Part shown: positions 3 through 52,329 of the stretch, one piece after another
How positions within the stretch are numbered: the first letter of the stretch is position 1
How the letters are laid out: every line of letters starts with the position of its first letter
NCBI GenBank assembly: GCA_963702425.1
Contig: CAVPCQ010000006.1
Location: forward strand, 381,014-445,013
DNA length: 64,000 bases
Source of the DNA: an uncultured Acidobacteriota bacterium
GTDB lineage: Bacteria; Acidobacteriota; Polarisedimenticolia; J045
Direction: 5' to 3'
The notes under the pieces: model-generated
Told to the model about the DNA's origin: nothing
What the model saw: only the letters and a program-made list of their open reading frames with translations
The model's database searches: none
Program-made: the position numbers and the translations under genes

Positions 3-374
3 CAGCGCGCGCTCGAGCACCCCAAGATCCGCTTCTTCTGGAACTCGGCGGTGGCGGAGGTGCTCGGCGACGACCACGTCACCGGGGTCCGGATCGAGAA
101 CCTCAAGACGGGCGCGATCGAGGACCACCTCGCGGGCGCGGTCTTCGTGGCGATCGGCCACCACCCCAACAGCGAGCTCTTCGCCGGCCGGCTGGCGATG
201 AACGAGAACGGCTACCTGGTCACGAAACCCGGCACGACCTCGACGGAGATCGAGGGGGTCTTCGCCTGCGGCGACGTCCAGGACTGGGTCTACCGCCAGG
301 CGGTGACCGCCGCGGGCACGGGGTGCATGGCGGCGATCGAAGCGGAGCGCTGGCTGGAGGCGAGCGGTCTGTAG
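3..374 (+). CDS. trxB: thioredoxin-disulfide reductase, C-terminal part (5' truncated by window)
   Basis: VFVAIGHHPNS, GVFACGDVQD, YRQAVTAAGTGCMAA motifs. Confidence 0.95.
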   Translation, partial: QRALEHPKIRFFWNSAVAEVLGDDHVTGVRIENLKTGAIEDHLAGAVFVAIGHHPNSELFAGRLAMNENGYLVTKPGTTSTEIEGVFACGDVQDWVYRQAVTAAGTGCMAAIEAERWLEASGL

Positions 375-405
375 GTGGTGCGGGGGGCGCGAGAGCGCGC
401 GGGGG

Positions 406-486
406 GCGCGGGAGCCGCGAGGGGCCCCCTGGCGAGTGGGTCGCAGGCTCCAACACTCGCCAGGGGGCCCCTCGCGGCTCCCGCGC
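406..486 (+). repeat. REP-like palindrome, copy 1: perfect 33-bp stem, loop GGTCGCAGGCTCCAA
   Basis: 406-438 is the exact reverse complement of 454-486; the same core recurs at 679, 27596 and 27916. Confidence 0.95.
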
Positions 487-508
487 GGCGCACCGCCACT
501 GAAAAAAT

Positions 509-640
509 GGGAGAGAAGTCTGTACAGCGACCGGGACGCGTTCGGTCGGTGTGGGAGAGAAGCCTGTACGGCGACCGGGACGCGTTCGGTCGGTGTGGGA
601 GAGAAGCCTGTACGGCGACCGGGACGCGTTCGGTCGGTGT
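509..640 (+). repeat. 3 x 44-bp tandem repeat, each unit with an internal hairpin
   Basis: GGGAGAGAAGCCTGTACGGCGACCGGGACGCGTTCGGTCGGTGT at 509, 553 and 597; the first copy has 2 substitutions; no spacers. Confidence 0.95.
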
Positions 641-678
641 AAAGATTCTTCTTTTTCTCTTTTTCCGGGAGCGGGATT

Positions 679-773
679 GGCGGCCGGCTGCGGGCGGGGA
701 ATGTCCCCCCGGCGAGTGTTGGAGCCTGCGACCCACTCGCCGGGGGGACATTCCCCGCCCGCGGCCGGCCGCC
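679..773 (-). repeat. REP-like palindrome, copy 2 (inverted orientation): 40-bp stem with 1 mismatch
   Basis: 679-718 pairs with 734-773; loop TTGGAGCCTGCGACC is the reverse complement of the copy 1 loop; abuts the stop codon at 774. Confidence 0.95.
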
Positions 774-1952
774 CTAGCGCGCCCCCCTCGCCGTTCCGAA
801 CCACGCCGACGGGTCCTCGGGCCTGCCGTCGACGCGCACCTCCAGGTACAAGTACGGCCCGCGCACGGAACCGGTGTCGCCGACGCGGCCGAGGCTCTCG
901 CCCTGCGCGATCGGGTCGCCGGCCTGCACGATCGCGGCCGAAAGGTGGCCGTAGACCGTGTGCACCGCGCTGCCGTGGTCGAGCACCACGACGAGGCCGT
1001 AGCCCTTCAGCCAGCCGCTCCACGCGACGCGCGCGTCGAACGGTGCGCGGACCACGGCCCCGAACGGCGCCGCGAGGTCCCAGCCCGGGTGCGGCAGGCG
1101 CGTGCCGAAGCGCGGATCGACCCGGTCGCCGAACGGCTCGTCGATCGTCCCTTCCTCGACCGGCAGGCGGAACACCCCTCTGAATCGCCGGGCGTCGAGG
1201 CGCACGGGGTCGGCGTCGGGAACGCCGGCGAGCACCGACTCCAGGCTGCCGCGCGCGCGCTCCAGCTCGACGACCGCCTGCTCGCGCACCGCCGTCTGCT
1301 GCCGCATGTCGGCCAGCAGGTCCTGGCGCGCGCGGATCGACTGGTCGAGCGCGGCCCGCGCGGCGAGCGCGTCGTCCTGCAGCCGCGCGACCTCCGCCTG
1401 GCGGGTCCGCTGTTCGGCCTCGAGCGCCGCGAGTCGGGCCTCGCTGTCCCGGATCGCGCCGACCTCGCCCTTGTAGCGCCAGGCCAGCTCGTGCGTGCTA
1501 CGCAGGCCGGCGCCCAGGGACTGGGTGTCGGCCGCCCCGAGCACCGGCTTGAGCCGGCCGAGCGGCCCCGCCTGCTGGAGCAGCCGCGCGATCGTCGACA
1601 GCCGGACCCGTCCCGCGTCCAGCCGCTCCTGCGCCGCGGCGCGTTCTGCCGCCGTCGCGGCCAGCGCCGACTCGGCCTGCGTCCGCTCCAGCGTCAGCTC
1701 CTCGATCCGCGCGTCCTGGAAGCGCGCCTCCGCGGCCAGCGCGTCGAGCCGCGCCAGCACGCCCGCCGAGTCCTTGTCGAGGCGCTCCCGCTCCGCCGAC
1801 AGCCGGGCGACTTCCTCGCGCACCCGCTGCAGCTGGCGCTCGGGGTTCTCGTCGACCGGCCCGGGCCCGGGGCCGGCGCCGAACGCGGCGGCGACTGCCG
1901 CCGCGAGCACGAGGGCCGCGGCGGGCAGGCGACGCGCAGGGCCCGCTACCAG
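774..1952 (-). CDS. EnvC-like murein hydrolase activator (coiled coil + M23/LytM domain); start uncertain (CTG 1952 or GTG 1910)
   Basis: signal-like N-terminus, long coiled coil, HPGWDL...GYGLVVVLDHG...TVYGHL...GPYLYLEVR (HxH replaced by YLY, as in EnvC-type activators). Confidence 0.85.
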   Translation of the reverse strand: MVAGPARRLPAAALVLAAAVAAAFGAGPGPGPVDENPERQLQRVREEVARLSAERERLDKDSAGVLARLDALAAEARFQDARIEELTLERTQAESALAATAAERAAAQERLDAGRVRLSTIARLLQQAGPLGRLKPVLGAADTQSLGAGLRSTHELAWRYKGEVGAIRDSEARLAALEAEQRTRQAEVARLQDDALAARAALDQSIRARQDLLADMRQQTAVREQAVVELERARGSLESVLAGVPDADPVRLDARRFRGVFRLPVEEGTIDEPFGDRVDPRFGTRLPHPGWDLAAPFGAVVRAPFDARVAWSGWLKGYGLVVVLDHGSAVHTVYGHLSAAIVQAGDPIAQGESLGRVGDTGSVRGPYLYLEVRVDGRPEDPSAWFGTARGAR

Positions 1953-9454: not shown

Positions 9455-9530
9455 TGGAGCGGGCGACGAGGCTTGAACTCGCGACCCTCAGCTTGGGAAG
9501 CTGATGCTCTACCAACTGAGCTACGCCCGC
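9455..9530 (-). tRNA. tRNA-Gly (CCC)
   Basis: GCGGGCGTAGCTCAGTTGGTAGAGCATCAGCTTCCCAAGCTGAGGGTCGCGAGTTCAAGCCTCGTCGCCCGCTCCA; 76 nt with encoded CCA. Confidence 0.97.
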
Positions 9531-26367: not shown

Positions 26368-27573
26368 ATGACTCGCGCCACCCTCCCGCTCCGGACCAGC
26401 AAGCGCGTCGAGGAGGTCACCTACGCCGTCCGCGACGTCGTGCTCTGGGCGCGCCAGGCCGCGGCCGCCGGCAAGGACATGATCTATCTCAACATCGGCG
26501 ACCCCTGCCAGTTCGACTTCCAGACGCCACCGCACGTCGTCGAGGCGATCGTCCGCGCCCTACAGGAGAACCGCACCAGTTACACCGCCTCGGAGGGGAT
26601 CCGCGAGGCGGTCGACGCGATCCGCGCCGACGCCGAGGTCCGCAAGGGGATCCGGGGAGTGCGCAGCGTGCTGGTCGGCAACGGCGCCTCGGAGCCGATC
26701 GAGCTGCTGCTCACCGCGCTGCTCGACCCGGGCGATGCCGTGCTCGTGCCGAGCCCCGGGTACCCGCTCTATACCGCGGTGCTGGCCAAGCTCGGCGCCC
26801 GCGCGATTCCCTACTACCTCGACGAGGCGAACGCCTGGCAGCCCGATCCGGACGAGCTCGCGCGCACCGTCGACCTCGGCACGCGCGCCATCGTGCTGAT
26901 CAACCCGAACAACCCGACCGGTTCGGTGGCCGGCCGGGAGACGCTCCTGCGGGTCCTCGAGATCGCGGCCCGCCACGGGCTGCTCGTGCTGTCGGACGAG
27001 ATCTACGACCGGATGCTGCTCGATCCGGAGACCGCGTACGTCTCGACCGCGTCGCTCCGGGACGACGTCCCGGTGGCGACCTTCTACGGCCTGTCCAAGG
27101 TCTGGCTCGGACCGGGACTGCGGATCGGCTGGTGCGTGCTCTCGGGCCCGGAAACGGCCGTGGCGCCGCTCGACGACGCGATGATGCGGCTCGCCCGCGC
27201 CCGGCTCTGCGCCAGCCACCCGGTGCAGTGCGCGATCAAGCCGGCGCTCGAGGGGCCGCAGGACCACATCGTCGCGGCCAACGCCAAGCTGCGCCGGCGG
27301 CGCGACATCACGGTGGAGAAGCTCCGCGCGATCCGCGGCTTCTCGGTCGTGCCACCGACCGCCGCGTTCTACGCCTTCCCGCGCTTCACGCTGCCGATCG
27401 ATGACGTCGAGCTGGTGAGGAGATTGGCGCTGGAGGAGGGGGTCGTGCTGGTGCACGGGTCGGGTTTCGGTCAGAAGCCGGGGACCCAGCACGTGCGCAT
27501 CGTCTTCCTGCCGACCGAAGCTCAGCTCGACGAGGCGTTTCGGCGGATTGGTTCGTTTGTGGCTCGGTTGTAG
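26368..27573 (+). CDS. class I/II PLP aminotransferase (AlaA-like)
   Basis: LNIGDP, NPNNPTG, SDEIY, GLSKVWLGPGLRIG. Confidence 0.92.
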   Translation: MTRATLPLRTSKRVEEVTYAVRDVVLWARQAAAAGKDMIYLNIGDPCQFDFQTPPHVVEAIVRALQENRTSYTASEGIREAVDAIRADAEVRKGIRGVRSVLVGNGASEPIELLLTALLDPGDAVLVPSPGYPLYTAVLAKLGARAIPYYLDEANAWQPDPDELARTVDLGTRAIVLINPNNPTGSVAGRETLLRVLEIAARHGLLVLSDEIYDRMLLDPETAYVSTASLRDDVPVATFYGLSKVWLGPGLRIGWCVLSGPETAVAPLDDAMMRLARARLCASHPVQCAIKPALEGPQDHIVAANAKLRRRRDITVEKLRAIRGFSVVPPTAAFYAFPRFTLPIDDVELVRRLALEEGVVLVHGSGFGQKPGTQHVRIVFLPTEAQLDEAFRRIGSFVARL

Positions 27574-27595
27574 GCGGCGGGATGGGCGCTGGGGC

Positions 27596-27674
27596 GGTGC
27601 GGAGGCGGATGGACCCCCTGGCGAGTGGGTCGCAGGCTCCAACACTCGCCAGGGGGTCCATCCGCCTCCGCACC
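27596..27674 (+). repeat. REP-like palindrome, copy 3: perfect 32-bp stem, loop GGTCGCAGGCTCCAA
   Basis: 27596-27627 is the reverse complement of 27643-27674. Confidence 0.95.
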
Positions 27675-27915
27675 TCCGTCGCCGGCACCGCGCGCTGCGC
27701 CTCCGTAGAGAGTGATTGAGAGGGAATGTTCTCCGCGCGCGATGCGTGACGGACGGCGAATACGTCACGCTCGGAGGGGTGGTCGCACCAGCGCCACGGA
27801 GGAGATGGGAGAGAACGTATTCACCGCTCGGTTGGCGTCCCCGTGCGATGCATACACTTTTCTATTATTTTATTGGTGCGAGCCGGTGGGGGCGGGCGGT
27901 TCTTCCCTGCGAACA

Positions 27916-27996
27916 GGGCGCGTGACGGGAAGTGCCCCCTGGCGAGTGTTGGAGCCTGCGACCCACTCGCCAGGGGGCACTTCCCGTCACGCGCCC
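27916..27996 (-). repeat. REP-like palindrome, copy 4 (inverted): perfect 33-bp stem
   Basis: 27916-27948 is the reverse complement of 27964-27996; loop TTGGAGCCTGCGACC. Confidence 0.95.
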
Positions 27997-28013
27997 GCCG
28001 CAACAGGAACGGA

Positions 28014-28514
28014 CTACGCCGGATCCCCTGCGAGTTCCGCCAGGCCTGCCCAGGTCGCGGCGTCCTGGGCGGTCAGGGTGCGCAGGTACAGCTCGACGTC
28101 TTCCTCGGGGAACTCCGACTTCACGGCTTCGACGGCGGACTTCAGCTTCTCGGGGGTGAGCTTGTCGGGGTCGAGGCCCTCGCCTTCCTTGAACAGGCCG
28201 TCGTCGTGCGGGATCTCGAGCAGGTCGAGAAAGCGTGCCAGCAGCGGGCGGCGGTGAGCGAGGTGGAAGGCGCTCAGGACTTGCATCGCCGTCTCCTCCG
28301 GCAGCCCGCCCTCGGCCAGCAGCGCCGCCCGGCGCGGGCGCGGCAGCTGCTCCAGGTAGGAGGCGCGGAAGCCGCGCGCGGTCAGCCACGGCATGAGCGC
28401 CGCAAGCCGGTCCTCGCGCGAGACCTGCTCGCTCTCCCAGAGCGCCAGCGCGGCCTCGGTGCGGCGCTCTTTCGGCAGCGTCTTCCAGATCTGGCGCGCG
28501 GTCCAGAAAGCCAC
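28014..28514 (-). CDS. hypothetical protein
   Basis: GGAGG RBS before GTG; globular sequence (FHLAHRRPLLARFLDLLEIPHDDG...LYLRTL). Confidence 0.8.
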   Translation of the reverse strand: MAFWTARQIWKTLPKERRTEAALALWESEQVSREDRLAALMPWLTARGFRASYLEQLPRPRRAALLAEGGLPEETAMQVLSAFHLAHRRPLLARFLDLLEIPHDDGLFKEGEGLDPDKLTPEKLKSAVEAVKSEFPEEDVELYLRTLTAQDAATWAGLAELAGDPA

Positions 28515-43715: not shown

Positions 43716-46700
43716 ATGCAGAACCGTTTTACAGCCGCGCGGTGGATGCTCGTCGTTCTCTGCGCCGGGGCCCTCTGGGCCTCGCTGGTCGTCGCCGACA
43801 CCGCTCCGAAGACGCCGTACTCGGCTATCCCGGGAAAGGCGGGTCCCGCCCCGACCGACTTGGATGTACGGGTCGCGGAGCCCACCATCAAGCCCCGCCT
43901 CTTCCAGCGGAACGTCGCGTGGTGGCCGTTCACGACGGGTCCCCACTACGGCGATCTCGACCTGCGTGGCGAGAGCGACTTTCCGGACGACGTCCTGCTG
44001 ACTCACGTCGGCAGCTTCCGGGTCGGTCAGGGGCTCGCGATTCCCGCCGAGCTGACGGGCTCGCTGTCCGGCCTTGCGGCCGGCCGGCCTCAGTACTTCC
44101 TGATCCAGATGCGCGCCGACTCGGTCAACTCCGAGTGGCCGCAGACGCTGGCGTCGATGGGGGCGACCGTCATGGGACGGACGCCGACCAACGGCGTCGC
44201 GGTGCGCCTGGACAAGGCCGCGTTCGACCGGCTCTCCGGATCGGCGCTGATCCAGTTCATCGAGCCCTACCACCCGGCCTACAAGATCCACCCCACCGTC
44301 GGGCACGTCGCTCAGGCGACCGCCGAAGCGGCCGCCTCGCCGATCTTCCGGCTCGAGGTCACGCTGTGGCCCGGTGAGCCCGCGGCCGCCACCGCCGACC
44401 TGCTGCGCCAGCTCGGCGCGACGGTCCTGAGCGTCACCGGCGTGCCGGAGCACGGCGAGACGATCGAAATCTCCGTCCACGCCGCGGCGATCCCCGAGAT
44501 CGCCAAGCTCGAGTCGGTCGTGCTGATCACCGAGTCCTCCCCGAAGATGATGTTCGGGCAATACGGCGCGGCCCTGCTGCAGAGCCCGAACTACGAGACC
44601 GGCGACTTCCCATACTGGAAGGCCGGGATCGATGGCGACGGCCAGGTCGTCGCCGTGCTGGACTCCGGGCTGTCCGTCGACGCCGCGGATCACGCCGACA
44701 CCGCGGCCGCGTCGGGCTGGTCCGCCAACGGTGCGGGGGGCGCCTGCGCCACCCTGACGGCCTTCGCCGGCTGCAACAACCCCAACAACGGCGCCGATCC
44801 GAGCGCCGGGAACTGCCACCGGAAACTGGTCTGCTACCGCTGGCCGGTCGGTGGGGTCGCAGCCAATTCGAACTACAGAGGGTGCGACGACACGGCGAAC
44901 GGGCGCTTCACGCACGGCCAGTTGGTCACGAGCACCGTCTTGGGCAACCCGGTGCGCGGCCGCGTCCCGGCGCCGGGCAACCCCTCCCCGACCGATACCG
45001 TCCCAGCCGACGATCCGAACAGCTTCCGCACCCGCGCCTACGGGCTCGGCGGGTTCGTCGACCAGGACAAGAACGGGCGATTCAGCGAGACCCAGGACCT
45101 GGCTTTCGACGGGATCGCCAAGGGCGCCCGCGTCGTGTTCTTCGACGCGGCCACGGCCTGTCCCGAAGCCGACAATCCCGGCGTCTTCCCGGGAAACTTC
45201 GTGTCGACCGTGACGGAGGCCAGAACCCTGCACGGCGCCACCGTGTTCAACAACTCGTGGGGTAGTGGCGGCGGCGGCTCAGCACCGGTCTACGCCCCGA
45301 GCGGGCGCAACAACGATCTCATCGTGAGGGACTACCCGATCATGGTGATCTCCCAGGCCGCCGGCAACGACGGCGCGGCCTCGGCCAACTCGGGCGTGGC
45401 CACGATCAGCGACGAGGCGAGCTGCAAGAACTGCCTCTCGGTGGGCGCCTCCGAGAGCTTCTTCTCCAGGAACTCCGTGGCCAACTACACGTCGGAAGGC
45501 CCGGCCTTCCTCGGCAGCCCGGCCAACAGGTCGCGCGTCGTGCCGACGATCCTGTCGGAAGGCCAGGAGAGCGCCTGCCGCTCGGAGGACTCCGGAGCGG
45601 AGGACCAGACCGGTGCCGCGACCTGCCAGCAGCAGGGCGCCGCGGGCACGTCCTTCGCTGCGCCGAACATCGCCGGCGCCACTGCGCTGATCCGCGAGTA
45701 CTTCGAGCAGGGCTTCTACAACAACCGGCCGACGAAGGCGATTTCGAGCCGCCTCGTCCGGGCGCTCATGTTCGCCGGAGCGGCCCCGATCACGAACGGC
45801 AAGACCTTCATCCCGCCCGCCCGATTCAACAACGTCTGGGGCTATGGCCACCTCCAGTTGACCCGCATCCTGCCGCTCGCCGAGTACCCGCAGACGGTGC
45901 CCGGGCTGATCGTCCACGACCTGCCGCCGGGCGACCTGAACGGCGACGGCACGGTGCCGGACGGCGTGAGCGATCTCAACCTCCCGGGGACCATCAACGG
46001 CGGCCAGACGCTGACCTCGGAGTTCACCGTCAACGGCGTGACCGACGACCTGGTGGTCACCCTGGTCTGGGACGACACAGTCGGCGCCGCGCTCGAAACG
46101 GGCGTGCTGAACGACAACCTGAACCTCGACGTCCGCTACTGCGGCATCGACGGCGTCTGCGGCAACGCCGACGACGAGGTCTACCAGGGCAACGCCTTCA
46201 GCGAGGATCCTGAGCGGGACAGCACCCGCAACGCCGACCTGCTCGTCGGCGGCCGCGCCGGCGCGGACCCGGACGGCTGGTGGTACAGCCTTCCCAACAG
46301 GTTCATCACGACCGGGGGCGGCACCCTGACCCAGTGGCGCGACGTCGGAAACAACTCCGAAGCCGTCTTCGTCGCCACCTTCCTGAATCGTCCGGACGAG
46401 AACCTCGACGGCACGGCCGATTTCCGGCGTGCAGACGCGAACGGAGACGGCACCCTCGACTCCGCGATCCTCTGCGACAACGCGGACCCGAACTGTGCCG
46501 GCGGCTTGGCGATGACCGGCAAGTGGCGCGTCGATGTCAGCGCGGCCGCAGCCGTCCCCGCCGGCAAGCCGTTCTCGGTCGCGATCGCCGGCCCCGTCGT
46601 CGCCGGCTCGACCGTCCGATTCAGCGACAACCCGATCGTTTGCAACGGGGCGAGCCGAATCGTCGTCGAAGAGAGGGCAGCCGCCGGCGCCGACGCCGAT

Positions 46701-49700
46701 CCGAACTGCATCGGGCCGAGCAACTGCTCTCCGAGACGTGATCTCCGCGCGCACGATCGTCGAGGTCTTCGACGCGAGCAACGTGCTCAGGGACACGGAG
46801 ACCGGCCTGGGGTTCGATGCGCCGCCTGCCGGCTCGCTCCGGTTCCAGACCACGAAACCGGTCCCGGTCAGCATCGACAGCTCGGCCGGCGGTACCAACG
46901 GCGTCCTCTACGTCGCGAACGGCTGGCGCATCCGCGTGCGCTACAGCGACAACAACGGCAGCACGACCGTCGTCCGCGAGTCCGAGGCGGCGATCGATTG
47001 CCAGTCCGGGCTCGAGGTCCAGCTACTGTCGCAGCTCGGCCGCGACACGTTCTTCCGGCTCGACGGCGGCTGCGACGACGACCCGTACCTCGACTTTGGC
47101 GAGACCTTCGGTCTGACCTTCCAGTTCTACAACCAGGACGGGCGCGAGCTGCCGGACGCCGAGGTCGAGCTGAAGGTGGTGGACGCCGACACCTGCACCG
47201 TGAACGAGAACGACCCCTGCCGCAACGCCTGCGCGCAGGCCAGCTTCATCCGGATCGACAACCCGATCCAGAAGATCGGGCTCCTGCCGGCGTTGTCGTT
47301 CCAGCAGTCGACCTTCAGCCTGGCGGTCGTCGGAACGCCTCCGGCCCGCAAGAAGGTCGAGTTCGTGCTCGGCATGCGCAGCCAGAAGGCCGGCCAGGGC
47401 GAGAAGAGCTGCCAGACCTTCCGCACCCTGGACGCCTTCCAGCTGCTGGCGCAGGCGGACGACGAGGTCCGGAACTTCACGACCGACTGCCAGACCGGGT
47501 GCACCCTCAACTTCGACCGCAACGGTGACGAGAAACTCGAGAACCGGATCGCGCCCAATCCCTTCGACCCGTTCGACTTCGCGCTGCGCGGCCAGGATGA
47601 GACCGCGATCGTCTACGAATCCCTGACGTCGCCGCAACGTAGCAAGCCGTGCACCTCGCCGGGCGTCCCGCCGGGATGCTGCCAGAACTGCGCCGCCAAC
47701 GGTGCCCTCGGCGGCCCGTGGGACTTCGACACGAACCGCGAAGGGTTCCGCACCGGCATCAGCCAGACCTCCAAGCTGTCCTCCACCGACGCGGACGGCT
47801 GCTCCAACTGGGGTGAGGACCGGAACTGGAACGACTCCTACGATACCGGCGAGGACCAGAGCCCGGGCACCCCGAATGTCCTCGACCAGAACTGGGGGAC
47901 GGGCGGCGGCTGCGGCTTCATGACCGGTACCGGCCCCACCACCGGCGGCGTCTGGCACACCGGTACGATCGGCCCCTACAACAACAACGGCGGCCTGGCC
48001 TGCCGCCCGAACGACAGCATCTGCGAGGAGTACGACACCAACGACGGCACGCAGGGGACGGCCTTCTGGGTCGAGTTCCTGCGCACCCCGGCGATCCACC
48101 CGATCAGCCAGGGGCCCGACGCCGTCGACGGCTACCAGTGGAACACCCAGATCACCGACTGGGCCTGGAACATGCAACTCGACCTGGCCGACGACCTGTA
48201 CTCCGGCTGGACCTGGAATTTCGACGTCGACCGCAACAACACCAACGAAATCAACACGCTCGGTTCCGAGTTCATCGCCTTCATCGACGCCGGCCAGTAC
48301 GGCCTGATCTCGGGCGGCCAGCTCAACATCTTCGGCGGCGGCCACGCCTTCGCCCCGACCGAGATGCGCGACGGCAACCCCAACGAGGGCGACGGCGTCA
48401 ACGGGACCCGGGGGAACAACCGCAGCGGTCTCCGAGGCTGCTACTTCAACGACCTCAACACGATCGACCTCGACGGCACCTCCCCCGGCACTCAGACGGC
48501 CGTGTTCCGTGAGAGCGGGGACGCCCGGCCGCTGGACGACGACTGCGACAACGACTACTCGCTCGGCGATAAGGGTTGCCCGGGCGACTGCGGGGTGGAC
48601 GACGACGTCAACGGGGCGATCGACGACCCACTCGAGATCTGCCCCTGCTTCCGGTGCGTCGCCGGCAGCCCCCGTGCCGGCAAGCCGTGCGTCGACTTCA
48701 AGCAGTGCAACGCGGGCAACACGACCGTCTACGCCTGCGCTCTCGATGTCGATACCAACGGCAGGCCGTTCCCGCTCGGCACCGGCGCTCAGACCGACGT
48801 CTGCGGCGACGGCACGACCGACAATACGCTGGCCGCGACGTTCGGCAGCAACACGACGCTGCGTCAGTCGCGGAACTGGAACATCCGCCGCATCGCCAGC
48901 AGCGGTCGAGTCACGGGGAACATCGCCTACAACACCCTGGAGGACATCTACGGCCCGGCCGGCGACACCTGGGCAGGCGAGGTCGGCTTCATCGTGTACG
49001 AGGCGCAGGGTAACCCGCAGCCCATCAACGGCTACGGGATGGCCATCGACGACATGGTCGTCGAGTGGAAGGAGAGCCACCCGGTGGCGCAGGTCGGCGA
49101 CAAGTGCTCGACCGGCACCAACCCGGACTTCCTCGGCCAGTGCGCGACGGTGAGCGTCGGCACGTTGTATGTCACCGACGGCGACGGATCGATTCCGGTC
49201 ACCGTGATCGACCCAGTACCCACGGACAACCTCGTCAACTGCGACGCCGATCCGGCCCTCGAGCTGCAGGTCCAGGCCTTCTCGTTCGCCGAGCCGGTTC
49301 CGGAGACCTTCTGTCTCGACCCGGTCGGCTCGGCCGGGGTCGAGTTCAGGGGTTTCGTCACGACCTCCTCGCGCTCGGCGCGTCCGGCCGACAAGAAGGT
49401 CTATGTCGCCTATGCCGCCAACATCGCGCCGTCGGTGACGGTGCGCTACTTCGACAAGAACGACGGCAAGAACGTCGTCAGCGCCGGTGCCGACGGCCAG
49501 CCCGGCGTCGCCGGCTTCGACGACGACGGGGACGGCTCGGTCGACGACGCGGACGAACTCTGTCCGCAGACGACCCGGCTCGCGAACGGGCGCACGCCCC
49601 ACCTCCCGGGTACGGCCGCCCGCTACTCCGACGACACCTGCGGCTGCATCGACAACCCGGTCGCGGCCGTCGTCTCCGCCTTCTTCGACTTCGCCGACGT

Positions 49701-52329
49701 GCGCATCCTGAATGTGTTCCTCAAGGACGGCGTCGCCGGCCAGGGAACGGGCGACGGCGATGGCTTTGCCGATCCGAATGAGCAGTTCGTCGTCGACGTG
49801 GTGGTCCGCAACGCGGCGAACTTCCCGATCGAGAACGTCAAGCTGACGCTCCAGAGCAGCAGCCCGTACATCCGAGACATCCGGGACAACACGATCCTCG
49901 TCGGCCGGCTGGAAAAGAACGGCGGCGGCGTGCCGGGCCAGTACGACACCTGCGACACCCGCTTGGGACGGAACCAGAACAACCAGGCGAGTCCCGTCTC
50001 CGGGGCGTGTCCTTCGACCGACCGTTTCGTCTTCACCGTGGTCGCCCCCGCGGGCCTGAGCCGCGCCAGCCTGGAGCAGGAGCTCTACTCGTCGTTCCTG
50101 ATCAACATCCAGGGGCTCGGCAAGGCCGAGGCCGGCTCGGATCTGACAGCCGACGTGCCGATCCTCGGCAGCTCCCTGCCGCAGACGTTCCGCGTGGCGC
50201 ACAACCTCGACAAGCCGACGGTGACTGCGGCGGCGAACGTGGTCGAGACCTTCGAGACCTTCGCTCGCGACAAGCAGTACACCGCCACCCAGAGCGCTTG
50301 CGGCACGACCTCCTCGAACAAGTGCCTGCTCAACTACTTCCGCCCGTTCAGCACGGGCGATCAAGCGACCGAGCTGGACGGTACCCACTGCCAGGTCCAG
50401 GATCCGGACAATCCGAACGGCACCACCACCGATCCGCTCGACTTCTGTCAGCTCGGCGCGGGCTACAACATCTCCGAGAAGCACTGGCACCTGCACGCTC
50501 CGGGCGCAGCCGGGGTCGGCGTGTGCGAGAACCGCGCCTGTGCCGACGGCGGCCGCTCGGTCAACGTCCTCAGCGCGAGCACCGGAAGGAAGAGCCTTTC
50601 GTCGTCCAACATCCTCGACGCCGGAACGGGCGTCGGCGCCGACGGCCTGACCACGGACTACAACCGGATGAACTGGGTCGAGTGGCACCGCGCCGGGACC
50701 CCGAGCGGAACCGCGAACACCTTCCAGTTGGGCTTCCCCGATCCGGCCAAGACGGTCACGAGCCCGCGGTTGCAGGGGCAGTTCACGGGCCCGGAACTCA
50801 CCTTCTGGACCCAGGTCTCGATCATGGACTCCCGCAACTTCCAGGGCGGCGGCGGGATCCAGGACGCGATCGACTGGACCTACGACGCGGCACGCGTCTA
50901 CGTCTGCGTCGACCTGGACCTGGACGGCACCGGGAGCGTCCACCCCAACGGCGAGTGCGACACCAAGGAGACCGGCGACCTGACCGGCAGGGAAAAGTGG
51001 GAGCCGCTCAAGGCCTGGTACACCCCGGAGACCAGCTACCGGCGAGTCGACAGCCGCGCCTGCATGTACGACCCGACGGACGATGGCAGCACCGAGTCCG
51101 ATTTCTTCGAGAACTCGGTCATCCGGGGGCCGTCTTCGACCTGCTCTCCGAACCTCAGCGACTCCTGCGTCGGCCGGACACGGGGCGACGACCCCTTGCA
51201 GGTCGTTCCGGTCGAACTGGGCGACGGCTGCTTCCCCGAAACCGGAGTCGAGCTCCAGGACGGCGTCAAGGGGCTCGCCGGAGGAACGGCGGTCGACTCC
51301 CTCTGGCTGCTCAAGCGCTACCGCCTCGACGAGTACGCCGGCCGGTCCGTCCTCTTCCGCTGGCACATCGCGCCCGGCGAGCTGCTCGGCCTAGAGAACG
51401 GCTTCGACTCCCTCGGAATATTCTCCGGCAACCGCGACGACGGCTGGTTCGTCGACGACATCCAGGTCAACGGACTCGCTGATCCGCTCACGCTGCTGGT
51501 CGACAACCTCGGCGAGACCGTCGCCCCGCCGGCCGCGACGGTCTGTACCGTCGGGGAGATCAACCCGGCCCTGGCCGCGATCCCCTACCCGACCTTCGAC
51601 CCCGACACCAACAAGACCCGTCCGGCCGCGGCCTGCTCGGATCCCGCGGCTGCGACCTGCGACTTCGACAGCAACGACACCGCGGATACCGCCTCCGATA
51701 CAACCGTGAGCGATGCCCCGCTGCGTCCATTCCAACTCACGGGGATCACGACCCCCGCTGCGACCTGCGTCGGCGGCGAGATCGAGTACAGGTTCCGCGA
51801 CCAGTTCGGCGCCATCCTCAGCGACTGGAGCGTGAGCCCGCAGACCAACGCCGGGAACCTGATCGTCACGCCGGCGGTCTCCACCGACTATTTCCTCGAC
51901 GTGCGCTGCTCCGCGAGCCCTACGGTGTGCCTCCAGACCGACTCGATCAGCATTGCTTTCGATCTCAAGGTCACGTTCCAGAGCAACACGAGGCTCGTGT
52001 GGTCGGGCCCCGGCCCGTTCGACACGACGAAGGGCAATGTCTCCGATATTCGGCCGCCATGCCCTGGGCTTTGCGACGGGACACCGGGCAACGTGCCCCC
52101 GGGAGGCATCTTCTCCGCCGCGACCTGCATCGACAACAATGGAACTGACTCTCAGACCGACGACACGATCAGCCCCAGCCCGGGCACAGCGTTCTACTAC
52201 CTCGTCCGGCTGTCGAACCCGGCCGCCACTCTCGGCACCTGGAATGACAAGCCCGATGCTCAGAGCTTCCCCTCGCCTGGGCGCCAGTGGAAGGATCGCG
52301 ACCTGACGCTCAACGCCTGCACTCCCTGA
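43716..52329 (+). CDS. giant (~2870 aa) secreted S8 subtilase, Cys/Asp-rich; one +1 frameshift near 46731-46737
   Basis: GGAGGAGG RBS, signal peptide, VLDSG / THG / AAGNDG / GTSFAAP; coding-like sequence switches from the 43716 frame to the 46534 frame at NCSP|DVISART. Confidence 0.85.

What the first reader, a model, noticed from the sequence alone, without database searches (positions are those of the whole stretch)
406..773. Composite intergenic element: inverted pair of long hairpins with an invariant 15-nt loop and covarying arms (copy A)
Seen: two hairpins (33 and 40 bp) share the exact 31-nt core GGCGAGTG-GGTCGCAGGCTCCAA-CACTCGCC in opposite orientations, with loops 280 bp apart. The same layout recurs at 27596-27996. 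Across all four hairpins the outer 19-27 bp differ in sequence yet pair almost perfectly (1 mismatch in total). Copy 2 also has a compensatory T-A to C-G change next to the core. Both elements lie between convergent genes, so each mRNA meets the loop in the same sense within 0-31 nt of its stop codon. Known: REP doublets (REPINs, BIMEs) are mobilised by HUH/RAYT transposases and have a similar inverted-pair layout. Inference: this is a non-autonomous mobile or RNA-processing family in which a protein reads the loop while stem pairing is maintained; I do not recognise the motif.
Basis: partly seen in the sequence, partly recalled or inferred. Interest (0 to 1): 0.8.

Follow-up and report, generated by a model that had tools for sequence, protein, structure and literature searches.

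The report
Paired conserved-tip hairpins between convergent genes
Two copies of a roughly 400-base element, each built from two long mirror-image hairpins with an identical tip, sit between housekeeping genes of an uncultured soil Acidobacterium; it resembles known bacterial palindromic repeats but fits none of them, and selection keeps its tip unchanged.

Summary
The 31-nt core occurs exactly four times in the window (0 expected), as two inverted pairs of 33-40-bp near-perfect hairpins. A covariance model finds no fifth copy. An exact 21-mer scan of species-representative genomes found four further places, all in three uncultured Acidobacteriota MAGs. One is the ortholog of copy A; three are orthologs of a third locus beside panD. 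All three loci lie between convergent genes, with the loop in the same sense as the adjoining gene.

Between orthologs the apical 43 nt (14-bp stem plus 15-nt loop) changes 4-5 times more slowly than third codon positions. The lower stems change at about that neutral rate yet stay paired. The interior changes faster still. There are few wobble intermediates and no strand bias, so DNA template switching could produce this covariation without RNA-level selection.

No Rfam family, transposase, canonical terminator, plasmid or phage match was found. Copy number is low: 2 loci in a 3.86-Mb MAG.

My reading, at 0.4 confidence, is a REPIN/BOX-like palindromic element whose tip is a protein recognition module. 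An RNA 3'-end role is the main rival.

The parts
406..486 (+). Hairpin A1: arms 406-438/454-486 (33 bp, perfect), loop 439-453 reads GGTCGCAGGCTCCAA on the + strand. The apical 43-nt module is 425-467.
380..415 (+). 19-nt tandem duplication at the base of A1 (380-396 and 399-415). It is absent from the ortholog L005.
487..507 (+). GC-rich spacer and the start of the purine-rich tract (CTGAAAAAATGGGAGAGAAG) that follows A1.
508..640 (+). Interior of copy A: three tandem 44-nt units (97% matches), each with a small 6-bp hairpin. The ortholog L005 has one unit plus a 590-bp insert.
641..678 (+). Pyrimidine/AT-rich tract and spacer before A2. It is purine-rich on the strand where the A2 loop is in sense.
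679..773 (-). Hairpin A2: arms 679-718/734-773 (40 bp, one G-T), loop 719-733 in sense on the - strand. The apical module is 705-747 and carries C-G instead of T-A at 710/742. The hairpin abuts the M23 stop codon.
27593..27677 (+). Hairpin B1: arms 27593-27627/27643-27677 (35 bp, 97%), loop 27628-27642 in sense on the + strand.
27678..27915 (.). Interior of copy B: spacers, purine-rich tracts on the loop-sense strand of each half, a GTATGCA box and an AT-rich stretch at 27850-27876. There is no long tandem array.
27916..27996 (-). Hairpin B2: arms 27916-27948/27964-27996 (33 bp, perfect), loop 27949-27963 in sense on the - strand.
3..374 (+). 3' part of a thioredoxin-reductase-like gene (Pyr_redox_2), TAG stop at 372-374, 31 nt before A1.
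774..1940 (-). M23 peptidase gene (C-terminal part shown), TAG stop at 774-776, directly next to A2.
26371..27573 (+). Class I/II aminotransferase gene, TAG stop at 27571-27573, 19 nt before B1.
28014..28286 (-). 90-aa ORF with no Pfam family, TAG stop at 28014-28016, 17 nt from B2.

Best explanation
This is a lineage-restricted, low-copy composite palindromic element of uncultured soil Acidobacteriota. It works like a REPIN/BIME or a pneumococcal BOX element, but it is not a member of either.

Each element has two 80-95-nt hairpin-forming palindromes in inverted orientation. They enclose a fast-evolving interior of 190-790 bp that carries tandem units, purine tracts and, in one genome, foreign DNA.

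Shown:
- The elements are homologous over the whole hairpin and part of the interior.
- They occupy three convergent intergenic sites.
- They have stayed at those sites across species-level divergence.
- Their apical 43 nt is under purifying selection in place, while the lower stem only has to pair.

Inferred:
- The apical module (15-nt loop plus 14-bp upper stem) is the recognition site of a sequence-specific protein that binds the extruded hairpin. This would most likely act on DNA. The likeliest candidate is a single-strand or hairpin-specific HUH/Y1-type enzyme, of the kind Acidobacteria are known to encode next to palindromic repeats. Such an enzyme would have spread the element to its few sites.
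- The perfection of the lower stems is kept mainly by replication template switching (quasi-palindrome correction), not by RNA-level selection.
- Because the element sits 0-31 nt after stop codons, each hairpin also ends up in the 3' end of the neighbouring transcript. There it may block read-through or 3' exonucleases. That would be a secondary effect.
For: Family and homology:
- 12 hairpins at 3 loci in 4 genomes. 10 of the 12 carry the exact loop plus 3 nt on each side.
- The arms align over all about 33 nt between paralogs. A2 against L003h1 is 88.9% over 90 nt, and B1 against L002h2 is 84.8% over 99 nt.
- An HMM built from a slice of the aligned halves (purine tract, box and the sequence just after it) matches convincingly only inside the elements. 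Its other hits have E above 2.

Constraint on the tip:
- Window against L005: the 31-nt cores show 0 changes in 62 nt. About 4.7 are expected from the 7.6% third-codon divergence (P=0.009).
- L003 against L002: the 43-nt modules show 3 substitutions plus 1 gap in 86 nt, against 15.9 expected at 18.5% (P=4e-4).
- In the same comparison the outer stems differ by 18% and the interior by 38%.

Pairing is kept while sequence drifts:
- 94.6% of cells are paired, and 18 of 32 pairs changed on both sides.
- By my reading, there are 5 compensated substitution pairs plus one paired 1-nt indel between orthologs. About 0.84 are expected (P=0.0017).

DNA-level signature:
- Only 2 one-sided wobble states are seen.
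- G-U-compatible mismatches favour the antisense strand 5 to 1.
- The A2 palindrome runs right up to the stop codon.
- The L004 contig ends inside a hairpin, as assemblies do at repeats.
- Template switching is documented to create and repair perfect stems (PMC8794818 abstract; PMC8604942 abstract start).

Precedent:
- Acidobacteria encode Y1 transposases flanked by long, partly self-complementary inverted repeats (PMC3733652 section 16).
- They also encode class 3 TnpA-Y1 genes with atypical secondary structures (PMC6006769 section 27).
- BOX elements likewise combine terminal modules with a tandem internal module whose copy number varies between strains (PMC3049150 passages). Here the window has 3 units where L005 has 1.

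Not terminators:
- No hairpin-plus-T-run site lies in either element.
- The same lineage shows hairpins followed by T runs beside the panD-locus element.
Against: - No transposase, integrase or HUH gene is among the 32 window ORFs or the 8 locus ORFs scanned. The rest of the genome could not be searched.
- Copy number is very low for a REP-like population. There are 2 elements in 64 kb here, and only 2 loci with the exact 21-mer in the 3.86 Mb of the two MFD02979.bin.1.81 contigs that the scan listed.
- I could not fetch an empty site or an excision product, and I saw no target duplication by eye.
- Purifying selection at fixed loci is not what a dead selfish repeat shows. It points to a benefit for the host, which the RNA rival explains at least as well.
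- The two loops are inverted, so each DNA strand carries only one sense loop. That does not fit the same-strand left and right hairpins of IS200/IS605 elements (recalled knowledge).
- One hairpin (L004h1) is decaying at the neutral rate, with 7 changes in 43 nt. So the constraint is not universal.
Confidence: 0.4

Rival explanations
1. Host RNA element. Each hairpin is a 3'-UTR structure of the adjoining convergent gene. It would stop read-through into the opposing gene and/or protect the 3' end. Its invariant 15-nt loop and upper stem would be bound by a dedicated RNA-binding protein or nuclease. The pair is simply two such ends facing each other.
For: - 6 of 6 hairpins at 3 loci present the loop in the sense of the nearest transcription unit. 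The hairpin bases lie 0-31 nt after stop codons, or about 25 nt after a terminator at the panD-distal side.
- All three loci are convergent.
- The tip is under purifying selection in place.
- A 33-40-bp GC-rich stem would be a strong barrier to exonucleases.
- All five abutting genes end in TAG, which hints at a link with translation termination.
Against: - No T/U run follows any hairpin.
- Wobble-compatible mismatches favour the antisense strand 5 to 1, and A-C mismatches occur on the sense strand.
- G-U intermediates are nearly absent (2 one-sided changes).
- The lower stems evolve at the neutral rate, with a paired indel. That fits a DNA mechanism better.
- The panD-distal hairpin follows a gene and a conserved region that already have their own hairpin-plus-T-run structures.
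- Perfect duplexes of more than 30 bp are classical RNase III substrates rather than stabilisers (recalled knowledge).
Confidence: 0.27
2. Neutral relic with concerted evolution. These would be old duplicates of a palindromic repeat with no present function. The identical tips would result from gene conversion among copies, and the perfect stems from template switching alone.
For: - Copy number is low and no associated enzyme was found.
- The interior is free to expand, contract and take up foreign DNA.
- One hairpin is decaying (L004h1).
- Template switching can keep stems perfect without selection (PMC8794818 abstract).
Against: - Conversion tracts would have to stop at the edge of the 43-nt module in every copy, while the adjoining homologous arms stay 15-40% different.
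- The tip is also conserved between orthologs in different genomes, where conversion among paralogs would need to act in parallel.
- The panD-proximal hairpins keep their own compensated core variant (GGTGAGTG/CACTCACC) in three genomes, so they are not homogenised with the other copies.
Confidence: 0.1
3. Recombination sites. In duplex DNA each hairpin is a pair of inverted 14-bp binding arms around an asymmetric 15-bp spacer, like lox, FRT or dif sites. Two such sites in inverted orientation would make the interior an invertible switch or a landing pad for cassettes, such as the 590-bp insert in L005.
For: - The spacer is invariant and asymmetric, with conserved inverted arms, and the sites form an inverted pair.
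- The interior differs between close relatives by a 590-bp lower-GC insert bracketed by a 24-nt imperfect direct repeat.
Against: - Inversion through the cores would join the outer arm of one hairpin to the inner arm of the other. Yet 10 of 11 hairpins are near-perfect self-palindromes with arms that differ between partners.
- The interiors are colinear in the 2 orthologs of copy A and the 3 orthologs of the panD locus.
- No recombinase gene is in the window or the flanks.
- 15 bp is long for a crossover region (recalled knowledge).
- The insert in L005 lies in the tandem-unit region, not at a core.
- Palindromy beyond a binding site is unexplained.
Confidence: 0.06
4. The interior is the functional part. 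It would be a small RNA gene or a bidirectional termination module (purine tract, small hairpins, pyrimidine tract), and the large hairpins would merely insulate it from the convergent genes.
For: - Purine-rich tracts and a GTATGCA-like box recur in most halves.
- The purine and pyrimidine tracts pair in the predicted folds of copies A and B and partly in L003.
Against: - The interior evolves faster than third codon positions, 38% against 18.5%.
- It varies by tandem-unit number and by a 590-bp insertion between genomes that are about 95% identical.
- The predicted folds are not conserved.
- No sigma-70-like promoter or canonical terminator was found.
- No Rfam family matches.
- A start codon in the box is present in only 5 of 12 halves by eye.
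Confidence: 0.07

Closest known systems
REP doublets / REPINs (BIMEs) with RAYT transposases
   Same: Both have two palindromic units in inverted orientation with a less conserved spacer. Both lie in extragenic space, persist vertically at the same loci, and have highly conserved short cores (PMC3116915 passages; abstracts).
   Different: - REPs are 20-40 bp with a GTAG or CGTC tag at the foot and loops of a few nt. A GI doublet spans about 71 bp, and REPs come in tens to hundreds of copies (PMC3733652 abstract start and passages; PMC6006769 passages; PMC3116915 passages).
- Here each unit is an 80-95-nt perfect hairpin with a 15-nt invariant loop, and the units are 193-264 bp apart in the window.
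- The conserved part here is apical, not basal.
- Only 2-3 loci per genome are seen.
- No RAYT could be looked for outside 64 kb.
TIRYT 'TIRtrons' and class 3 TnpA-Y1 repeats of Acidobacteria
   Same: Same phylum. These are Y1/HUH genes flanked by long inverted repeats, some wholly self-complementary ('double palindromic TIRs'), with moderately abundant solo, dimer or cluster families (PMC3733652 section 16; PMC6006769 section 27).
   Different: - By eye, the published motifs (GGGGWSAS in some TIRs; a CnGA foot) are not matched exactly in these hairpins.
- The published sequences are in figures or supplements that I could not see.
- No Y1 gene lies between or beside any of the copies found.
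- About 600 copies are reported in Solibacter, against 2-3 loci here.
Pneumococcal BOX elements (boxA-boxB(n)-boxC)
   Same: Both are composites with conserved terminal modules that can pair, and an internal tandem module of about 45 nt whose copy number varies between strains. Both are intergenic and predicted to be highly base-paired (PMC3049150 passages). Here the unit is 44 nt, with 3 copies in the window and 1 in L005.
   Different: - BOX termini are about 50-60 nt modules that pair with each other and are not each a long perfect hairpin.
- BOX elements are AT-rich Firmicute repeats present in many copies.
- I expect no sequence relation, and I did not test for one.
Intrinsic (rho-independent) terminators between convergent genes
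   Same: A GC-rich hairpin right after a stop codon, in a bidirectional position.
   Different: There is no T/U run. The stems are 33-40 bp with a 15-nt loop, against the usual short stem and 3-8-nt loop. The tip sequence is shared between loci.
Recombinase core sites in inverted pairs (lox/FRT/dif modules, invertons)
   Same: Conserved inverted arms around an invariant asymmetric spacer, with two sites in inverted orientation around a short segment.
   Different: The palindromy extends 19-27 bp beyond any plausible binding arm and covaries. No inversion was seen among orthologs, and no recombinase gene is nearby. The features of lox, FRT and dif sites are recalled, not read here.

Membership tests
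REP / REPIN (RAYT-associated) | Unit is a short palindrome of 20-40 bp with a loop of a few nt | tested here: not met
   Units are 81-95 nt (33-40-bp arms) with a 15-nt loop. REP size is taken from the PMC3733652 abstract start. The REP prediction rules are from PMC6006769 passages.
REP / REPIN (RAYT-associated) | GTAG (or GTGG/CGTC) tetranucleotide 0-2 nt from the foot of the hairpin | tested here: not met
   By eye, there is no such tag at any hairpin foot. GTAG occurs 17-31 nt away at 4 of 6 distinct ends, and each time it overlaps the neighbour's TAG stop codon.
REP / REPIN (RAYT-associated) | Two units in inverted orientation that can form one larger hairpin | tested here: met
   Arms 409-489 and 683-763 are 77% complementary. 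Arms 27607-27663 and 27928-27984 are 89% complementary.
REP / REPIN (RAYT-associated) | Tens to hundreds of copies per genome | tested here: not met
   There are 4 hairpins in 64 kb and no diverged fifth. Only 2 loci with the exact 21-mer occur in the two MFD02979.bin.1.81 contigs that the scan listed, 3.27 + 0.59 Mb. Copies with changed loops would be missed.
REP / REPIN (RAYT-associated) | A single-copy RAYT (Y1 HUH) gene flanked by the repeats | not testable with these tools
   None of the 32 window ORFs or 8 locus ORFs is a RAYT.
MITE (DDE-transposase derived) | Terminal inverted repeats at the very ends, with conserved tips | tested here: not met
   The conserved part is subterminal. The outermost 19-27 bp differ between copies.
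MITE (DDE-transposase derived) | Target-site duplication | tested here: inconclusive
   By eye, no clear direct repeat flanks the elements. There is only a low-complexity AGCGCGC near both ends of copy A. No empty site was available.
BOX-type composite repeats | Terminal modules plus a tandem internal module that varies in number between strains | tested here: met
   Three 44-nt units in the window against one in the roughly 95%-identical L005. This is a likeness of architecture only. Sequence relation to boxA/B/C was not tested.
Any Rfam 15 family | Score at or above the family's gathering threshold | tested here: not met
   In the window, only the tRNA at 9458-9530 passes. In the loci, the 18 matches with E up to 1 are all below gathering. 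Most are microRNA-precursor models that fit any long hairpin; the best is 47.3 bits against 90.
Intrinsic terminator | Hairpin followed within 0-2 nt by a T-rich run | tested here: not met
   0 sites in 300-900 and 0 sites in 27500-28100.
Invertible segment (inverton) | Both orientations of the interior exist, and a recombinase gene is nearby | tested here: not met
   The interiors are colinear in 2 orthologs of copy A and 3 orthologs of the panD locus. No recombinase is among the ORFs scanned. Consensus assemblies cannot exclude a minor orientation.

The most novel reading that the evidence does not exclude
The invariant 15-nt loop on a 14-bp upper stem is the docking site of a dedicated, still unknown hairpin-binding protein of this Acidobacteriota lineage. 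It would mark the 3' ends of a small set of convergent housekeeping genes (trxB-like, M23 peptidase, aminotransferase, panD operon), all ending in UAG. That would make it a bacterial counterpart of a stem-loop-binding-protein 3'-end system, coupling translation termination at UAG to transcript end formation or turnover. The long self-repairing lower stem would serve only as a pedestal.
Probability: 0.1. Interest if true: 0.8.

Novelty: new variant of a known kind. Interest (0 to 1): 0.5.

Why it matters
Palindromic intergenic repeats are usually studied where they are abundant, in enterobacteria, pseudomonads, pneumococci and neisseriae. This one is a very low-copy, very long-stemmed form in a barely studied soil phylum, and it shows a clean split between three parts:
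- a tip held constant by selection;
- a pedestal that drifts at the neutral rate while staying perfectly paired;
- an interior that drifts freely.

It matters in two ways. First, it is a compact natural test case for whether compensatory change in long stems reflects RNA-level selection or DNA template switching. That question bears on how covariation is used as proof of RNA structure. Second, if the tip is read by a protein, the system offers a defined 43-nt ligand with which to fish out a new hairpin-specific DNA or RNA binder from Acidobacteria.

If it proves to be only a decaying repeat, it is still a useful marker that breaks short-read assemblies of this lineage.

Tried and rejected
- Rfam at gathering threshold on the window and at E up to 1 on four loci. 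Only sub-threshold matches came back, most of them to microRNA-precursor models.
- BLASTN of copy A against plasmids only and of copy B against phages only. No match. The reciprocal searches were not run.
- Full-text search for the loop as DNA or RNA, either strand: 0 papers. A six-term search for a described Acidobacterial element: 0 papers.
- A fuzzy regular expression for diverged loops returned noise and missed the true sites. I replaced it with the covariance model.
- A column-wise count of ortholog changes was distorted by gap placement around the paired indel. For those hairpins I relied on the separate folds and the region-by-region comparison.
- Interior as coding. The 44-nt period is not a multiple of 3. 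An ATG/TTG in the box occurs in 5 of 12 halves by eye. The only long frames are read-through artefacts of a 72% GC genome.
- Type III toxin-antitoxin (repeat array plus ORF). The L005 ORF has no Pfam family and only one near-identical relative. The window has the array without any ORF.
- Retron or group II intron. No reverse transcriptase gene and no Rfam match.
- Recoding of the TAG stops. By my count from the coordinates, the TAG-to-loop distances (40-64 nt) share no frame.
- Likeness of the loop to the tRNA-Gly gene in the window. It shares GGGTCGC and GCTCCA, which I judge to be chance.
- Sigma-70 promoters and canonical terminators inside the elements: none.
- A conserved three-domain fold of the whole element. 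It is predicted for copies A and B but is not reproduced in L002.
- Motifs GGGGWSAS and CnGA from the literature. I checked them by eye and found near misses only.
Full report
THE OBSERVATION. The 31-nt core occurs exactly four times in the window, at 431-461 (+), 711-741 (-), 27620-27650 (+) and 27941-27971 (-). None is expected from shuffles, even with 3 mismatches allowed.

Each core is the tip of a long inverted repeat:
- A1: 33 bp, 100% complementary.
- A2: 40 bp, 98%.
- B1: 35 bp, 97%.
- B2: 33 bp, 100%.
All four have a 15-nt loop. They are the four longest close inverted repeats among the 107 in the window. They fold far better than shuffled sequence as DNA (z -9.8 to -13.3) and, as whole elements, as RNA (z -15.8 and -11.8).

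The identical part is in fact 43 nt: a 14-bp stem plus the loop. It carries one T-A to C-G exchange, in hairpin A2. A covariance model built from 11 hairpins finds only these four in the window, with filters on and off. The next hit scores 18 bits at E=0.12.

SURROUNDINGS. The window has 72% G+C. The 32 ORFs I scanned are housekeeping genes. They include a trxB-like gene, an M23 peptidase, tRNA synthetases, glycosyltransferases, BamA and NDK. None is a transposase, integrase or reverse transcriptase.

Copy A lies between the trxB-like gene (stop 372-374) and the M23 peptidase gene (stop 774-776). Copy B lies between an aminotransferase gene (stop 27571-27573) and a 90-aa ORF (stop 28014-28016). 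Both pairs of genes are convergent. The hairpin bases start 31, 0, 19 and 17 nt after the stops.

Neither element contains a sigma-70-like promoter or a hairpin followed by a T run.

RELATIVES ELSEWHERE. I had one scan of the species-representative genome collection. I used the loop plus 3 nt on each side as the pattern. It returned five stretches, which are four distinct places, all in uncultured Acidobacteriota MAGs.
- L001/L005 (MFD02979.bin.1.81) is the ortholog of copy A. It has the same trxB-like and M23 genes, and its flanks are 95.2-95.8% identical to the window.
- L003 (same MAG, another contig), L002 (Prado002) and L004 (binchicken_co245_196) are orthologs of a third locus. This one lies between the end of the panB-panC-panD operon and a small gene, so it is again convergent.

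Reading those loci added two hairpins that the exact pattern had missed. One has a changed loop centre (L003h2, AG replaced by TTC). The other is degenerate (L004h1). In all there are 12 hairpins, and 10 carry the exact 21-mer. I aligned 11, because L004h2 is cut by the end of its contig, 7 nt after the 21-mer match.

At 3 of 3 loci the loop is in the sense of the nearest transcription unit. That has a chance probability of 0.125.

The two contigs of MFD02979.bin.1.81 that the scan listed are 3.27 and 0.59 Mb long, and they hold only these two loci with the exact pattern. So copy number is truly low, and the copy-B site in that MAG either lacks the element or carries changed loops. I could not fetch that site.

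ANATOMY. The hairpin arms of different loci align over their whole length, with consensus GGYGCGGAG.CGGGAA.G..CCCCCTGGCGAGTG. Some paralog pairs are close: A2 against L003h1 is 88.9% over 90 nt, and B1 against L002h2 is 84.8% over 99 nt. The long hairpin is therefore ancestral and was not rebuilt at each site.

After each hairpin, on the strand where its loop is in sense, come four features:
- a GC-rich spacer;
- a purine-rich tract of about 20 nt;
- in most halves, a box like GTATGCAGCG;
- a small variable hairpin.

An HMM built from a slice of the aligned halves (purine tract, box and the sequence just after it) matches convincingly only inside the elements; its other hits have E above 2.

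The interior is plastic. The window has three tandem 44-nt units. L005 has one unit followed by a 590-bp insert that looks lower in G+C by eye. The insert carries a 162-aa ORF with no Pfam family and only one near-identical relative in the protein collection. It is bracketed by a 24-nt imperfect direct repeat.

RATES. I used third codon positions of the flanking genes as a neutral yardstick. They differ by 7.6% between the window and L005 (39 of 510) and by 18.5% between L003 and L002 (24 of 130, panD).

Against that yardstick:
- The 31-nt cores show 0 changes in 62 nt in the first pair (P=0.009).
- The 43-nt modules show 3 substitutions and 1 gap in 86 nt in the second pair (P=4e-4).
- The outer stems differ by 4.5% and 18% in the two pairs, which is about neutral.
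- The interior differs by 38%.

So the tip is under purifying selection at fixed loci. The lower stem is free in sequence, and the interior is unconstrained. One hairpin, L004h1, has lost the constraint, with 7 changes in 43 nt against L002.

PAIRING. On the 11 hairpins, 94.6% of cells form standard pairs, against 77.2% after shuffling and 43-51% with slid partners. 18 of 32 pairs changed on both sides, and 0 of 500 shuffles reach these values.

Between orthologs, by my reading, there are 5 compensated substitution pairs plus one paired 1-nt deletion. About 0.84 are expected if the sites mutated independently (P=0.0017).

The manner of change matters:
- Only 2 one-sided wobble states are seen.
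- Many exchanges are transversions, such as G-C to C-G or T-A.
- The mismatches that do exist are G-U-compatible on the antisense strand in 5 cases and on the sense strand in 1. Three of those five are in a single hairpin, so the count is weak evidence.

Neutral-rate drift, complete double changes and no strand preference are what replication template switching in quasi-palindromes produces. That mechanism is documented to create and repair perfect stems and to give multibase compensatory changes (PMC8794818, abstract and opening read; PMC8604942, start of abstract only). Covariation here shows that the strands pair within themselves. It does not show that the pairing partner is RNA.

WHAT IT IS NOT.
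- No Rfam family reaches threshold. Only the tRNA does in the window. In the loci there are only sub-threshold matches, most of them to microRNA-precursor models, which fit any long hairpin.
- Copy A has no match in the plasmid collection, and copy B has none in the phage collection.
- The loop string is in no paper of the searchable library.
- The hairpins are not canonical terminators. The same lineage shows hairpins followed by T runs next to the panD-locus element.
- The hairpins are not an inversion switch in any simple sense. Recombination through the cores would mix the differing arms of the two partners, yet 10 of 11 hairpins are near-perfect self-palindromes. The interiors are colinear among orthologs.
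- The interior is not a conserved small RNA.

COMPARISON WITH KNOWN KINDS. The layout works like a REP doublet (REPIN/BIME). It has two palindromic units in inverted orientation, a less conserved spacer, an extragenic position and vertical persistence (PMC3116915 passages; abstracts listed).

Membership fails on the features I could test:
- REPs are 20-40 bp, carry a GTAG or CGTC tag at the foot and have small loops.
- A GI doublet spans about 71 bp.
- REPs come in large numbers (PMC3733652 abstract start and passages; PMC6006769 passages; PMC3116915).
- Here the units are 81-95 nt, the conserved part is apical, no tag sits at the foot, and there are 2-3 loci per genome.

The nearest biological precedent is in the same phylum. 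Acidobacteria carry Y1 transposase genes flanked by long, sometimes wholly self-complementary inverted repeats that also occur as solo or paired repeats (PMC3733652 section 16). They also carry class 3 TnpA-Y1 genes with atypical secondary structures (PMC6006769 section 27). I could not compare sequences.

In architecture, the three-part build with a tandem internal module of about 45 nt that varies between close strains is that of pneumococcal BOX elements (PMC3049150 passages).

MOST LIKELY MECHANISM. I commit, at about 0.4, to a REPIN/BOX-like palindromic element acting at the DNA level. Its tip would be read by a hairpin-specific protein, most plausibly an HUH/Y1-type enzyme encoded elsewhere in the genome. 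That enzyme would have placed the element at a few harmless convergent sites. Template switching keeps its pedestal perfect.

The main rival, at about 0.27, is a host RNA 3'-end element bound by a loop-specific RNA-binding protein. It explains the orientation, the closeness to stop codons and the selection in place at least as well. It is weakened by the lack of strand-specific wobble support and of U runs.

The lesser rivals are a neutral relic with gene conversion, recombination sites, and a functional interior.

IN PASSING. All five genes that abut a hairpin end in TAG, while 6 of the 28 other ORFs in the window do. Post hoc, P is about 5e-4 to 3e-3. I have no explanation. A published link between REPs close to stop codons and ribosome stalling (Liang, Rudd and Deutscher 2015) is recalled only. 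I saw it as a reference entry, and the paper is not held.

VERDICT. This is a real, conserved and undescribed element. It is a new variant of a known kind and moderately interesting. Its value lies in the clean separation of a selected tip from a self-repairing stem.

Noticed in passing
window 372-374, 774-776, 27571-27573, 28014-28016; L003 2360-2362: All five gene ends that abut a hairpin use the stop codon TAG, against 6 TAG among the 28 other ORFs of the window. Post hoc, P is about 5e-4 to 3e-3. No shared reading frame links the stop to the loop.
   Followed up: partly
L003 1680-1950 (also L004 1380-1660 and L002 2340-2620 on the other strand): About 270 nt conserved among three MAGs, lying between two hairpins that are each followed by a T run, directly beside the panD-locus element. 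It may be a small RNA or a small ORF. Only sub-threshold Rfam matches were found (rnk leader and Spot 42 models, E 0.25-0.46).
   Followed up: partly
L005 2130-2700: A 590-bp insert inside the ortholog of copy A, lower in G+C by eye. It carries a 162-aa ORF with a hydrophobic C-terminal part, no Pfam family and one near-identical relative. It is bracketed by a 24-nt imperfect direct repeat derived from the 3' end of the 44-nt unit.
   Followed up: partly
window 380-415: A 19-nt tandem duplication (GCGGGGGGCGCGAGAGC / GCGGGGGGCGCGGGAGC) at the base of hairpin A1, absent from the ortholog L005. Together with the 44-nt array it shows frequent slippage in and around the element.
   Followed up: partly
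L004 2001-2028 (end of contig CAYZDB010000035.1): The contig ends 7 nt after the 21-mer match, inside the hairpin. Short-read assemblies often break at repeated sequence in this way, so copy numbers in fragmented MAGs may be underestimated.
   Followed up: no
window 9455-9530: The tRNA-Gly(CCC) gene shares GGGTCGC and GCTCCA with the hairpin loop. The two pieces are 22 nt apart in the tRNA gene and 2 nt apart in the loop. I judge this to be chance.
   Followed up: partly
window 46516-52326: A 1937-aa ORF with high third-position G+C and no Pfam match at E up to 0.001. It overlaps the end of a subtilase-like ORF in another frame. It was not examined further.
   Followed up: no
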